Assembly: GCA_964016885.1 (NCBI GenBank)
Contig: OZ024740.1
Location: forward strand, 275,714,001-275,778,000
Length of the DNA: 64,000 nucleotides
Direction of reading: 5' to 3'
Origin: Eledone cirrhosa
Lineage: Eukaryota
Positions within the stretch are counted from its first letter, which is position 1. The number at the start of each line of letters is the position of its first letter. The translations under genes were made by a program, and so were the position numbers. Shown piece after piece: positions 33,558 through 38,118 of this stretch. The notes under the pieces were generated by a model. It had not been told where the DNA came from and did not search any database. It saw only the letters and a program-made list of their open reading frames with translations.

Positions 33558-34112
33558 TGTGGATTGGCAGTATAGGTAGAGGGTCGGACGCCATGCTTTC
33601 TAGCATAGTTACGTCCCTTTACGATCTGAGTTCAAATCCCGCCGAGGTTGACTTTGCCTTTCATCCCTACGAGGGTCGATAAAATAAAGTACCAGTAATG
33701 CACTGGGGGTAATTGCTGGCCTTGTGCCTAAAGTAGAGACAATTATTACAAAAATGTTTGAATTAAAATAATTGTTTCTACTTTTTGGCACAAGGCCAGC
33801 AAATACCCAGTGCATTACTGGTACTTTATTTTATCGACCCCGTAAGGATGAAAGGCAAAGTAAACCTTAATGATGTTTAACCCTTTAGAAATTATATTAC
33901 TCTATATATACTATTCTATTTTTGCAGTAAAGGCTTTATCTTACATAATATCTCTCATAATACCGAATCTATGAGATGTTGATATTATTTATTTTGAGTT
34001 CAAATCCCGCCGAGGTTAACTTTGCCTTTCATCCTTACGGGGTCGATAAAATAAAGTACCAGTAATACACTAGGTATTTGCTGGCCTTGTGCCAAAAGTA
34101 GAAACAATTATT
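33558..34112. mobile_element. Three SINE copies (+, -, +), the last inside a piggyBac-like MITE
   Basis: 33558-33748 (+), 33768-33868 (-), 33995-34112 (+). Confidence 0.85.
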
Positions 34113-34434
34113 TATTTTGAGAATAATACCTTAACATCAGTATGAATGGTCTGTTTGAACTGAAAGAGGTGAGAGAATGCCATCGATTAACATCTATCTT
34201 CCATGCTAGCATGGATTAGACGGGTTTGTCCCAATTTAGAGGTTGACCATGTCTCACTCATATAGGACTGCTTCTGGCTGGTTTTCTATGGCTGGATGCC
34301 CTTGCTAACGCCAACCATATTTACAGTGTGTGCTGGGTGCTTTTTGCATTGTCTTTTACACGACCACTTTACAGGGTGGGCTGGATGTTTTGTCGTACCA
34401 GCAATATATTTATATATATATATATATATATATA

Positions 34435-36405
34435 TCCAAGAGGGAAGCTAGGCGACAAGTATACTTAGCTAGGAGGGAAGCAGAGGATAGAAAATTCAAG
34501 CATGTTTTACAACGTGAGGACCAGAAACAGGAGGTATTCAAGATTGCGAGGCAGTGTGTCAGAGATAGTTGTGATGTCATTGGAGAGAAGTGTATCCGGA
34601 ATGATAAAGGTGAGCTTGCCCTCACAAGTGCTGAGAAGAAAGATGCATGGAAGAGTCATTATGATAGATTACTAAATGAGGAGAATGCATGGGAAGAAGA
34701 GACCCTACCCCACGTAGACCCTATAGAGGGACCAGCAGTACAAGTCAGCGGCAGCGTAGTAAGTAAGGCAATCAGAGATATGAAGATAGGGAAGGCAACC
34801 GGTCCATCGGGTATAGCTGCCGAGATGCTGAAGGCATCTGGGTCTGTAGGTCACACTATAACCACACGTATCGTTAACCAGGTAATACTAGAGGGGGCCA
34901 TACCAAAAGATTGGTGCAGTAGCATCATTGTCAACTGCTACAAAGGTAAAGGCGATGCACTAGATAGAGGAAACTATAGAGGTATAAAGTTGATGGACCA
35001 GGTCATGAAAGTAACAGAAAGAGTTATAGCACAGTTGATTAGGGACCGGGTGAATATAGACGAGATGCAATTTGGGTTTGTTCCAGGGAAAGGCACCACT
35101 GATGCGCTCTTCCTTGTGAGGCAATTACAGGAAAAGTACCTAGCTAAAAGTAAGCCACTCTACTTGGCATTTGTCGACCTTGAGAAAGCCTTTGACAGAG
35201 TTCCACGTGCAGTAATCTGGTGGGCTCTTAGAAAACTAGGAGTAGATGAATGGCTTGTGAAAGCGGTACAAGCCATGTATAGGGGAGCAGTCAGCAAAGT
35301 TAGGATTGGCAATGAGTATAGCGAGGAATTTAGCGTACAGGTTGGGGTCCACCAGGGCTCTGTTCTTAGCCCTCTCCTGTTCATCATAGTCCTGCAGGCA
35401 ATAACGGAGGAGTTTAAGACCGGATGCCCATGGGAACTCCTGTATGCTGATGACCTCGCACTCATAGCTGAATCTATGGTAGAACTAGAGAATAAATTCC
35501 AAACCTGGAAGCAGGGACTAGAGAGAAAGGGACTCAAAGTCAACATGACAAAGACTAAGGTCCTTATAAGTAGACGAGAAAACAGAACCCAGATCCCCTC
35601 ACGGAAATGGCCTTGCTCAGTATGTAGGAAAGGTGTAGGTAGGAACTCCATTCTTTGCCCCAAATGCAAACAATGGGTACACAAGAGATGTAGCGGGATC
35701 TCAGGAAGCTTAATTAAGAATGTAGGATTCACATGCAGCAGCTGTGCTGAAACAGCAAGCAAACAGCCACAGGAAACAAGTACCACCAATCTCTGGGAGG
35801 GCCCTGTAGAAACAGTAGACAGCTTCTGCTACCTAGGTGACCGAATTAGCAACGGAGGTGGGTGCTCAGAAAGTACAATAACTAGGGTAAGAACGGGATG
35901 GAAGAAGTTTAGGGAACTACTACCACTGCTAGCTGCAAAAGGCTTCTCCCTCAGAATGAAAGGCAGACTGTATGATGCGTGTATCCGAACAGCGATGTTG
36001 CATGGTAGTGAGACCTGGGCGCTGAAGGTGGAAGACTTACGTAGATTAGAGAGAAACGAAGCCTGCATGCTCCGATGGATGTGTAACAGTAATATACGTG
36101 AACGACAAAGCATAAATGAATTGAGAGAGAGACTGAGCATAAGAGGAATCAAATGCTGCGTGCAGGAGAGGCGGTTACGCTGGTATGGACATGTGATGCG
36201 TATGAAGGATGACAGCTGCATAAAAAGGTGCAGAGCACTAGAAGTTGATGGAAACCGCGGAGTGGGGAGACCCAAGATGACTTGGGATGAGGTGATAAAA
36301 GCCGACCTTACCCAACTACACCTCTCAAAGTCAATGACACACGACCGTGACTTCTGGCGTCACGCAGTAATACAGGGTACCCGACCTCCCATGGGTACAT
36401 GCTGA
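34435..36405 (+). CDS. Uninterrupted LINE ORF2 portion: reverse transcriptase with PHD-type finger; N-terminal APE domain missing
   Basis: GNYRGIKL, QFGF, FVDLEKAFD, GVHQGSVLSP, YADD, FCYLG, RLRWYGH, GRPK in one frame; the upstream part of the listed ORF (34330-34434) is flank and microsatellite. Confidence 0.9.
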   Translation, partial: SKREARRQVYLARREAEDRKFKHVLQREDQKQEVFKIARQCVRDSCDVIGEKCIRNDKGELALTSAEKKDAWKSHYDRLLNEENAWEEETLPHVDPIEGPAVQVSGSVVSKAIRDMKIGKATGPSGIAAEMLKASGSVGHTITTRIVNQVILEGAIPKDWCSSIIVNCYKGKGDALDRGNYRGIKLMDQVMKVTERVIAQLIRDRVNIDEMQFGFVPGKGTTDALFLVRQLQEKYLAKSKPLYLAFVDLEKAFDRVPRAVIWWALRKLGVDEWLVKAVQAMYRGAVSKVRIGNEYSEEFSVQVGVHQGSVLSPLLFIIVLQAITEEFKTGCPWELLYADDLALIAESMVELENKFQTWKQGLERKGLKVNMTKTKVLISRRENRTQIPSRKWPCSVCRKGVGRNSILCPKCKQWVHKRCSGISGSLIKNVGFTCSSCAETASKQPQETSTTNLWEGPVETVDSFCYLGDRISNGGGCSESTITRVRTGWKKFRELLPLLAAKGFSLRMKGRLYDACIRTAMLHGSETWALKVEDLRRLERNEACMLRWMCNSNIRERQSINELRERLSIRGIKCCVQERRLRWYGHVMRMKDDSCIKRCRALEVDGNRGVGRPKMTWDEVIKADLTQLHLSKSMTHDRDFWRHAVIQGTRPPMGTC

Positions 36406-36702
36406 AGCATATAAACAATATGCCCCCCCCCCACCGCAAGGTGGTCGTGGAGGTGCCACGGCAAAAAAGCACCCAGCCCACACTGTAAAGTGGACGTGTA
36501 GGCGCCACGAAAAAGCACCCAGCACTCACTGTAAATGAGGTTGGTGTTAGGAAGGGCATCCAGCTGTAGAAATCAAGCCAGATCAGTTCCTGTATGAGCA
36601 AGGCATGGTCAGCCGACCAGACACTGCCCACAACAGGACAACCCGTCTAACCCATGCTAGCGTGGAAGAACGGACGTAAAACGGTGATGATGATGATGAT
36701 GA

Positions 36703-36706
<4 letters not shown>
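34437..36706 (+). mobile_element. RTE-clade LINE, 5'-truncated (no endonuclease), with 3' UTR and (GAT)n tail, in (AT)n
   Basis: Starts right after (AT)n and ends acccatgctagcgtggaagaacggacgtaaaacggt(gat)n(at)n. Confidence 0.96.
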
Positions 36707-36755
<49 letters not shown>

Positions 36756-36877
36756 AATATAGACATAGAATATTCGAAAATATTCTGTATGTTTATAATA
36801 AACATTTTGAAGACCTAATCGCTATAGAATAGAATACGTCACGTATTACAATTAGATTCTCGATAAAAGCAAGGGAA

Positions 36878-36920
36878 GTAATCTACGCGTTTCATTCTCG
36901 TTAGAAATCATCAGGACTAC
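36878..36920 (-). ncRNA. Type I hammerhead ribozyme motif, unit 1
   Basis: GUAGUC-CUGAUGA-U-UUCU-AACG-AGAA-U-GAAA-CGCG-UA/GAUUAC; stem I continues past an internal loop into a perfect 16-bp helix (36856-36871/36929-36944). Confidence 0.82.
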
Positions 36921-37187
36921 ATATCCAGTGCTTTTATCGAGAATGACACAGCTAGAGACTTATAGAATACTTAGCTGTGTACAGGAACTGGTTTGAAAGA
37001 GCGGTTGCCGGTCCGGCAGAAATTAGAAATTGGAATAAATGCTCTGAAATAGCGATATATATGTGAATATAGACATAGAATATTCGAAAATATTCTGTAT
37101 GTTTATAATAAACATTTTGAAGACCTAATCGCTATAGAATAGAATACGTCACGTATTACAATTAGATTCTCGATAAAAGCAAGGGAA

Positions 37188-37230
37188 GTAATCTACGCGT
37201 TTCATTCTCGTTAGAAATCATCAGGACTAC
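37188..37230 (-). ncRNA. Type I hammerhead ribozyme motif, unit 2
   Basis: Same as unit 1, offset 310. Confidence 0.82.
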
Positions 37231-37497
37231 ATATCCAGTGCTTTTATCGAGAATGACACAGCTAGAGACTTATAGAATACTTAGCTGTGTACAGGAACTG
37301 GTTTGAAAGAGCGGTTGCCGGTCCGGCAGAAATTAGAAATTGGAATAAATGCTCTGAAATAGCGATATATATGTGAATATAGACATAGAATATTCGAAAA
37401 TATTCTGTATGTTTATAATAAACATTTTGAAGACCTAATCGCTATAGAATAGAATACGTCACGTATTACAATTAGATTCTCGATAAAAGCAAGGGAA

Positions 37498-37540
37498 GTA
37501 ATCTACGCGTTTCATTCTCGTTAGAAATCATCAGGACTAC
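37498..37540 (-). ncRNA. Type I hammerhead ribozyme motif, unit 3
   Basis: Same as unit 1, offset 620. Confidence 0.82.
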
Positions 37541-37807
37541 ATATCCAGTGCTTTTATCGAGAATGACACAGCTAGAGACTTATAGAATACTTAGCTGTGT
37601 ACAGGAACTGGTTTGAAAGAGCGGTTGCCGGTCCGGCAGAAATTAGAAATTGGAATAAATGCTCTGAAATAGCGATATATATGTGAATATAGACATAGAA
37701 TATTCGAAAATATTCTGTATGTTTATAATAAACATTTTGAAGACCTAATCGCTATAGAATAGAATACGTCACGTATTACAATTAGATTCTCGATAAAAGC
37801 AAGGGAA

Positions 37808-37850
37808 GTAATCTACGCGTTTCATTCTCGTTAGAAATCATCAGGACTAC
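37808..37850 (-). ncRNA. Type I hammerhead ribozyme motif, unit 4
   Basis: Same as unit 1, offset 930. Confidence 0.82.
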
Positions 37851-37986
37851 ATATCCAGTGCTTTTATCGAGAATGACACAGCTAGAGACTTATAGAATAC
37901 TTAGCTGTGTACAGGAACTGGTTTGAAAGAGCGGTTGCCGGTCCGGCAGAAATTAGAAATTGGAATAAATTAGAAATTAGAATATG

Positions 37987-38118
<132 letters not shown>

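What the first reader, a model, noticed from the sequence alone, without database searches (positions are those of the whole stretch)
36707..36760. The array's 3' end falls exactly on an internal (AT)4 of the monomer: built-in homology to the (AT)n target
Seen: unit junctions read agcgATATATATgtgaat, and the array's left boundary (3' end of the ribozyme strand) merges into the genomic (AT)n at exactly this internal AT run rather than at the ribozyme cleavage site. The other end (37971-37990) has a short stuttered tagaaattagaat sequence. The host tract is the (AT)n directly after the tail of an RT-intact RTE LINE. Inference: a nicked (AT)n primed reverse transcription on the AUAUAUAU of a circular or multimeric RNA, and the RT went round about four times. 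This would be a targeting mechanism encoded in the RNA, borrowing an (AT)n-targeting RT/endonuclease.
Basis: partly seen in the sequence, partly recalled or inferred. Interest (0 to 1): 0.72.

Follow-up and report, generated by a model that had tools for sequence, protein, structure and literature searches.

The report
Twin-primed hammerhead repeat, Penelope-type ends
This junction is one of two fixed start points of a very young, abundant, non-coding repeat that carries a predicted self-cutting RNA; its copies usually land in AT-repeat DNA as two opposed arms, one from each start point, which suggests that a Penelope-type jumping-gene enzyme likely copies one RNA from both ends of a DNA break, and not the neighbouring LINE as first proposed.

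Summary
Observation confirmed: the array (4 identical 310-bp units, minimal hammerhead on the minus strand) ends in the unit's own (AT)4, about 130 nt from the predicted cleavage site. This is systematic: about 1,300 such junctions genome-wide, 0 at a control position. But it is only half the rule. About 1,100 ends fall at a second site 32-34 nt away with only 2 nt of homology. All 77 fully resolved two-armed insertions pair one end of each kind. The arms share a haplotype (56 of 66; shuffled mean 5.9), join by microhomology rather than mirror fold-back, and show a 12-bp target duplication (5 of 5 readable). Inverted arm, one-sided 30-40-nt tail and (TA)n target are Penelope-like element (PLE) hallmarks. 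The LINE neighbour is incidental (1 of 177 ends). The AT run is not the targeting signal: its G is overwritten in 745 junctions, and a sister family with a broken run starts at the same place. Best reading: a non-LTR retrozyme inserted by PLE protein through twin priming on one RNA. The helper PLE and circle-versus-multimer remain open. The scan had already noted this two-armed family on other DNA of this genome.

The parts
36745..37970 (-). Single-armed retrozyme array, 3 full 310-bp units plus 296 bp; hammerhead (RNA) strand is minus; non-coding (longest ATG frame 30 aa), 34.5% GC
36745..36754 (.). Start site A: unit positions 1-10, (AT)4 then G,T; outer end of the array, G9 kept here (36753)
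36705..36752 (.). Host (AT)24, left flank; overlaps site A
36878..36920 (-). Minimal type I hammerhead, unit 1 (core CUGAUGA...GAAA; stem III a 6-nt palindrome that pairs only between two copies); predicted cut between 36884 and 36883; further copies at 37188-37230, 37498-37540, 37808-37850
   Evidence: motif read from sequence; not found by Rfam
37029..37064 (.). Start site B (unit position 285) through the next site A: the 32-34-nt 'tail' present on only one arm of two-armed copies; repeats at 37339 and 37649; not used as an outer end in this copy
37035..37140 (-). Conserved RNA domain around site A: two hairpins with compensatory changes and a closing helix, shared with older sister families; the AT run itself is unpaired in the consensus fold
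   Evidence: 19 sequences; 3 of 19 pairs with two-sided changes
37971..37989 (+). Stutter at the 5'-truncated end: short re-copies of unit positions ~279-293
37989..38112 (.). Host (TA)n, right flank
34432..36706 (+). Neighbouring 5'-truncated LINE (RT frame to 36405, (GAT)7 tail); incidental neighbour, not part of the element

Best explanation
The array is one arm of a young non-LTR retrozyme that is likely inserted by a Penelope-like element (PLE) protein, which is inferred to nick (AT)n on both strands about 12 bp apart and to extend both 3' ends on one RNA from two fixed start sites. Shown from the genome: two start sites (A at the AT run, B 32-34 nt away), one of each per two-armed insertion, a shared haplotype in both arms, random inner ends joined by 2-5-nt microhomology, and a 12-bp duplication between the inferred primer ends. 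Inferred: a PLE RT/GIY-YIG dimer binds the structured RNA domain around these sites. The endonuclease, not the RNA, picks (AT)n. The 12-nt overhang at A pairs with the single-stranded AU run (8-10 nt, mismatches tolerated), which steadies priming and sets the register. The overhang at B primes with 2 nt. Each RT copies unit after unit and stops at random, and the two cDNAs anneal. In this window only the A arm was completed; its RT stuttered near site B and joined the right-hand (TA)n. The template may be a monomer circle (whole-array private variants) or, at least sometimes, a linear multimer (L167, L089).
For: 77 of 77 resolved two-armed insertions are A+B, none AA or BB; unselected first 15 loci of C1: 12 A+B, 1 A only, 2 B only. 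Genome counts A 552+745 and B 1,100, control 0. Same majority haplotype in both arms in 56 of 66 pairs, shuffled mean 5.9 and maximum 15; 17 of these haplotypes were seen in no other sampled pair. Centre joins: 39 of 58 without insert overlap by >=2 nt against 18% by chance; mirror joins 4 of 80 versus 5.4 expected. Target duplication exactly 12 bp in all 5 loci with a readable interruption, of 57 examined. B lies 34 nt from A in 74 of 85 B ends although a 6-nt insertion has moved the older B sequence away (6 of 85 still use it); in the sister families the same distance is the commonest single start (6 of 17 loci by my count). Protein-coding PLEs (RT + GIY-YIG; CX2-5CxxC linker in 5 of 6) occur in this genome, and one family shows long+short ends in 6 of 7 two-armed copies. 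Published PLE traits match: inverted 5'-truncated copy, 30-40-bp tail at one end, (TA)n bias (PMC8557442); 34-37-bp repeat (PMC2377424); two RT start sites and extension of both strands in vitro (PMC11167929).
Against: No autonomous PLE sharing sequence with the unit was found among 50 GIY-YIG loci (the one hit, L047, is a sister-family insertion beside a PLE) or 30 PLE family-2 loci. Three pairs have truly discordant arms (L143, L170, and L167, whose change is ordered from the outer ends). One PLE pair is long+long. In vitro the anole PLE showed no strand preference between start sites and no homology at them, so the strict pairing is untested biochemically. Three of the 18 interrupted loci (L085, L143, L150) allow at most 8-10 bp of duplication at the assumed primer ends. 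80 of the 95 fetched stretches were picked by one end, and all are from contig C1. Sister-family B starts scatter up to 9 nt farther out.
Confidence: 0.75

Rival explanations
1. One reading: the RNA's AU run is the targeting device and the neighbouring LINE's RT/endonuclease is borrowed.
For: Site A coincides with the run; 552 junctions stop short of G9, as pairing would favour; LINE tails also sit beside (AT)n.
Against: Site B has 2 nt of homology yet lies in (AT)n in 84 of 85; G9 overwritten 745 times; broken-run sister uses the same site; L044 and L036 are inserted in non-(AT)n or imperfect targets; LINE tail beside 1 of 177 ends; no shared 3' end.
Confidence: 0.06
2. PLE machinery, but the two arms come from two separate RNA molecules of the same source array, each held by one subunit.
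For: One dominant source per cell would also give matching haplotypes; L143 and L170 are discordant; L172 and L176 show jumps to other repeat RNAs.
Against: L167 and L089 change haplotype at the same unit number counted from the outer ends in both arms; strict A+B pairing is simpler on one molecule with two adjacent sites.
Confidence: 0.12
3. One priming event followed by fold-back or self-priming (the model proposed for PLE inverted repeats in PMC3846280) makes the second arm from the first.
For: Would also give identical haplotypes; proposed for rotifer PLEs with palindromic junctions (passages).
Against: Joins are not mirrors (4 of 80 versus 5.4 expected); either arm may be longer (A 34, B 43 of 77); L167 matches from the outer ends, not from the centre; both outer ends are at fixed sites.
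Confidence: 0.04
4. Monomers insert and arrays then grow at DNA level by slippage or unequal exchange at the AT run, so the junction marks a recombination seam.
For: Recurrent single-unit variants in long arrays (L076, L091) show some DNA-level turnover.
Against: Inner ends fall anywhere in the unit; both arms are multimeric with one haplotype; the internal run is not length-variable (14,498 of 15,262 exact).
Confidence: 0.03

Closest known systems
Animal non-LTR retrozymes (Cervera and de la Pena 2020, PMC7229834, passages read; Li, Clavereau and Pollet 2026, bioRxiv 10.64898/2026.07.22.740005, part 1 of 5 and passages read)
   Same: Tandem ~300-bp, low-GC, non-coding units with one type I hammerhead each; stem III of one pair plus palindromic tetraloop as described for axolotl HHR_Amex1; PLEs proposed as the mobiliser.
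   Different: In the passages I read neither paper describes insertion ends, two opposed arms, fixed start sites or a tail. Expression, cleavage and circles are shown there and not here.
Penelope-like elements: D. virilis Penelope (PMC2377424), rotifer Penelope (PMC3846280), Neptune/Naiad (PMC8557442); passages read
   Same: Inverted 5'-truncated copy, 30-40-bp tail on one end, variable target duplication, (TA)n bias.
   Different: No ORF. The papers ascribe the tail to endonuclease resolution (PMC8557442) and the inversion to self-priming (PMC3846280); here the strict A+B pairing, non-mirror joins and a 12-bp duplication point to priming from both ends.
Anole Poseidon PAc in vitro (Frangieh et al. 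2024, PMC11167929; main text read, parts 1-2 of 4, supplements not read)
   Same: Two adjacent internal RT start sites bounding the tail; both DNA strands cut and extended; predicted dimer.
   Different: There the start sites have no homology to the target and no strand preference was seen; here one site carries an 8-10-nt match to the target and each insertion uses one of each.
L1 twin priming (recalled, no call)
   Same: Both target 3' ends prime on one RNA and the two cDNAs join by microhomology, giving an inversion.
   Different: In L1 the second primer lands at variable internal sites and the arms barely overlap; here both sites are fixed and adjacent, so the arms form long inverted repeats.

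Membership tests
non-LTR retrozyme | tandem units of ~150-450 bp, low GC, non-coding | tested here: met
   310 bp, 34.5% GC, longest ATG frame 30 aa
non-LTR retrozyme | type I hammerhead motif in every unit | tested here: met
   motif in all four units; stems form in a two-copy cofold; Rfam does not detect it
non-LTR retrozyme | dispersed multi-copy family | tested here: met
   15,262 exact 24-mer matches
non-LTR retrozyme | self-cleavage and linear/circular RNA in vivo | not testable with these tools
   needs RNA data or a bench assay
PLE-mobilised element | inverted 5'-truncated copy at the 5' end | tested here: met
   82 of 99 insertions two-armed, 12 of the 15 unselected
PLE-mobilised element | 30-40-bp tail at one end only | tested here: met
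   77 of 77 A+B, 32-34 nt
PLE-mobilised element | (TA)n target bias | tested here: met
   171 of 176 ends
PLE-mobilised element | sequence shared with the pLTR of an autonomous PLE | tested here: inconclusive
   none in 50 GIY-YIG loci and 30 family-2 loci; only 150 of 10,596 candidates were scored
autonomous PLE | RT + GIY-YIG open frame | tested here: not met
   no frame in the unit
LINE-dependent SINE-like element | 3' end shared with the LINE, or simple-repeat LINE tail | tested here: not met
   best E 0.17 against the window's LINE copy; no (GAT)n tail on the element

The most novel reading that the evidence does not exclude
The PLE tail and inverted repeat are the record of an asymmetric RT dimer that holds one RNA and starts both cut DNA ends exactly 34 nt apart: one subunit primes with a 12-nt overhang paired to an exposed AU window, the other with 2 nt, and both then run round a 310-nt hammerhead circle. 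That would explain PLE insertion anatomy in general and be direct genomic evidence of rolling-circle reverse transcription of an animal circular RNA.
Probability: 0.4. Interest if true: 0.8.

Novelty: new variant of a known kind. Interest (0 to 1): 0.6.

Why it matters
How PLEs integrate, and which enzyme moves animal retrozymes, are stated as open in the papers read (PMC8557442, PMC7229834, PMC11167929). This family offers over a thousand nearly unmutated insertions whose ends give numbers to test: two start sites 34 nt apart, one per DNA end, a 12-bp stagger, shared template. A 310-nt RNA and an (AT)n oligo make a small in vitro substrate. Copying both strands from one RNA would also matter for RNA-templated insertion tools, where second-strand synthesis is the poorly understood step (own knowledge).

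Tried and rejected
DNA-similarity search of the own genome with the unit returned nothing, not even the window, because common words are skipped; exact patterns were used instead. Rfam gave no hammerhead. Search for the helper: PF01541 scan, 50 loci compared with the unit, 30 sister-family loci, PLE family 2 and a repeat captured at the centre of L172 gave no partner. Sequencing runs: no RNA holder listed; 6 runs of unstated kind from 4 coded organisms hold 90-100% of the words; no reads were laid, so nothing is claimed from them. The junction count was distorted by haplotype variants and replaced (81 joins, 23 with inserts; L083 counted twice, L031 left out). The duplication scan was too loose and was replaced. 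Arms under 45 nt were dropped, so L077 (11-nt B stub) counts as single-armed. Literature searches that showed no paper proposing paired two-end priming for PLEs or retrozymes: (listings only, open-licence library); unread supplements of PMC11167929 and the closed preprint supplements may bear on this.

Full report
1. The observation. The window holds (GAT)7 (36686-36706), (AT)24 (36705-36752) and four identical 310-bp units to 37970. Each unit begins with (AT)4, so the left end merges with the host run. The minus strand carries a minimal type I hammerhead (36878-36920; predicted cut 36884/36883). Its stem III is a 6-nt palindrome that pairs only in a two-copy cofold, matching the description of axolotl HHR_Amex1 (PMC7229834, passage). 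Rfam did not detect it. The array end is about 130 nt from the cut. The right end stops at unit position 296 and stutters for 19 nt. The neighbouring LINE frame has RT but no endonuclease match and is 5'-truncated.

2. The family. The window is G000:C1:275,714,001-275,778,000 of a 3.0-Gb genome (earlier notes call it a cephalopod; not tested). A 24-mer of the unit occurs 15,262 times, 14,498 in the internal context. I fetched the first 15 loci of C1 without regard to ends, 40 stretches picked by an AT-run end and 40 picked by the second end. With the window this gave 99 insertions: 77 two-armed with both ends seen, 5 two-armed with one end outside the stretch or in N, 17 single-armed. In two-armed copies both RNA 3' ends face outward.

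3. Two start sites, one of each. All 176 resolved outer ends fall at unit positions 1-15 (site A, 91) or 278-291 (site B, 85; 74 at 285). All 77 two-armed copies are A+B. Genome-wide there are 552 A junctions with G9 kept, 745 with the AT run written over G9 and 1,100 B junctions; a mid-unit control gave 0. In 31 of 32 sampled arms that lost G9 at the outer end, the next unit keeps it, so the A comes from the target. Inner ends are uniform (p=0.38).

4. The AT run does not do the targeting. B has 2 nt of homology and lies in AT-alternating DNA in 84 of 85 cases (A: 87 of 91). In the sisters the run is (AT)5 or is interrupted twice, and the interrupted form still starts at the homologous base (553 junctions; 6 of 6 visible inner copies interrupted). 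L044 sits in non-repeat AT-rich DNA with both ends in place. The run probably does help priming: 552 junctions stop before the mismatch, AT register is usually kept, and the run is unpaired in a consensus fold with compensatory changes in the flanking hairpins. B sits 34 nt from A in this family although a 6-nt insertion displaced the older B sequence (used by 6 of 85); the same distance is the commonest start in the sisters, with wider scatter. This suggests a ruler set by protein (inference).

5. One template, two primers. Arms share the majority haplotype in 56 of 66 pairs (shuffled mean 5.9, maximum 15). By my reading, 7 of the 10 differences are single-unit changes in short arms and 3 are real (L143, L167, L170). 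In L167 both arms change haplotype after the second unit from the outer end, and in L089 both carry a variant in the first unit only; this fits a multimeric template read from the same unit. Whole-array private variants in up to 25 units (L100) fit a monomer circle. Joins overlap by >=2 nt in 39 of 58 insert-free cases against 18% by chance and are not mirrors (4 of 80 versus 5.4), which argues against fold-back. Where an interruption makes the duplication readable it is 12 bp in 5 of 5; 39 of 57 loci were pure (AT), 10 more were compatible, and 3 allowed only 8-10 bp.

6. Which enzyme. A LINE tail abuts 1 of 177 ends and the unit has no similarity to the LINE. The anatomy is that of PLEs: inverted truncated copy, one-sided 30-40-bp tail and (TA)n bias (PMC8557442, passages), 34-37-bp repeat (PMC2377424, passages), two start sites and both strands extended in vitro (PMC11167929). 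The genome has many RT + GIY-YIG elements, 5 of 6 examined with the CX2-5CxxC linker that PMC8557442 links to microsatellite bias. One such family shows long+short ends in 6 of 7 two-armed copies. The specific helper was not found.

7. Mechanism. Shown: the end rules above. Inferred: a PLE dimer nicks (AT)n 12 bp apart, primes one 3' overhang at A (paired over 8-10 nt) and the other at B (2 nt), copies successive units, and the cDNAs anneal. In this window only the A arm survived. Confidence 0.75; rivals are listed with their odds.

8. Novelty. The element class and the PLE traits are known, and PLE mobilisation of retrozymes has been proposed (PMC7229834; preprint). The strict pairing, common template, 12-bp stagger and fixed spacing did not appear in what I read, and they disagree with the self-priming proposal of PMC3846280 (passages) for this family. 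Earlier notes of this scan describe the same two-armed family on other DNA of this genome (seen after my analysis, not counted as support). Verdict: real feature, interpretation partly right, new variant of a known kind, interest 0.6.

Noticed in passing
L176-L205, L236-L247 (G000:C1): Two older ~320-bp sister families (3,291 pattern matches) with the same two-armed A/B anatomy; one carries a hammerhead core with the U3:A8 change, read by eye.
   Followed up: partly
L176:1490-2075: A sister-family arm runs without an AT spacer into a short inverted piece and the 3' end of protein-coding PLE family 2; a possible hybrid insertion, one case.
   Followed up: partly
L172 centre join; L248-L267: A 54-nt piece of another (AT)n-flanked, inverted repeat family (7,849 matches) is captured between the two arms.
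   Followed up: partly
L104 inner end; L079; L087 flank: Stutters like the window's: repeated re-copies at the AT run (L104), a second single arm ending at position 296 (L079), and a site-B fragment inside an A flank (L087).
   Followed up: no
L135, L057 downstream of the ORF: A protein-coding PLE family with an internal (AT)n followed by a ~33-nt tail and a palindromic minimal hammerhead, the same layout as the retrozyme without alignable sequence; a helper candidate.
   Followed up: no
window 33680-33870 and 33990-34110: Inverted copies of a repeat forming a long hairpin (weak miRNA-family matches far below gathering score); possibly another two-armed element.
   Followed up: no
L083: The same insertion appears twice beside a run of N with many single-base deletions; probably an assembly duplicate.
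   Followed up: no
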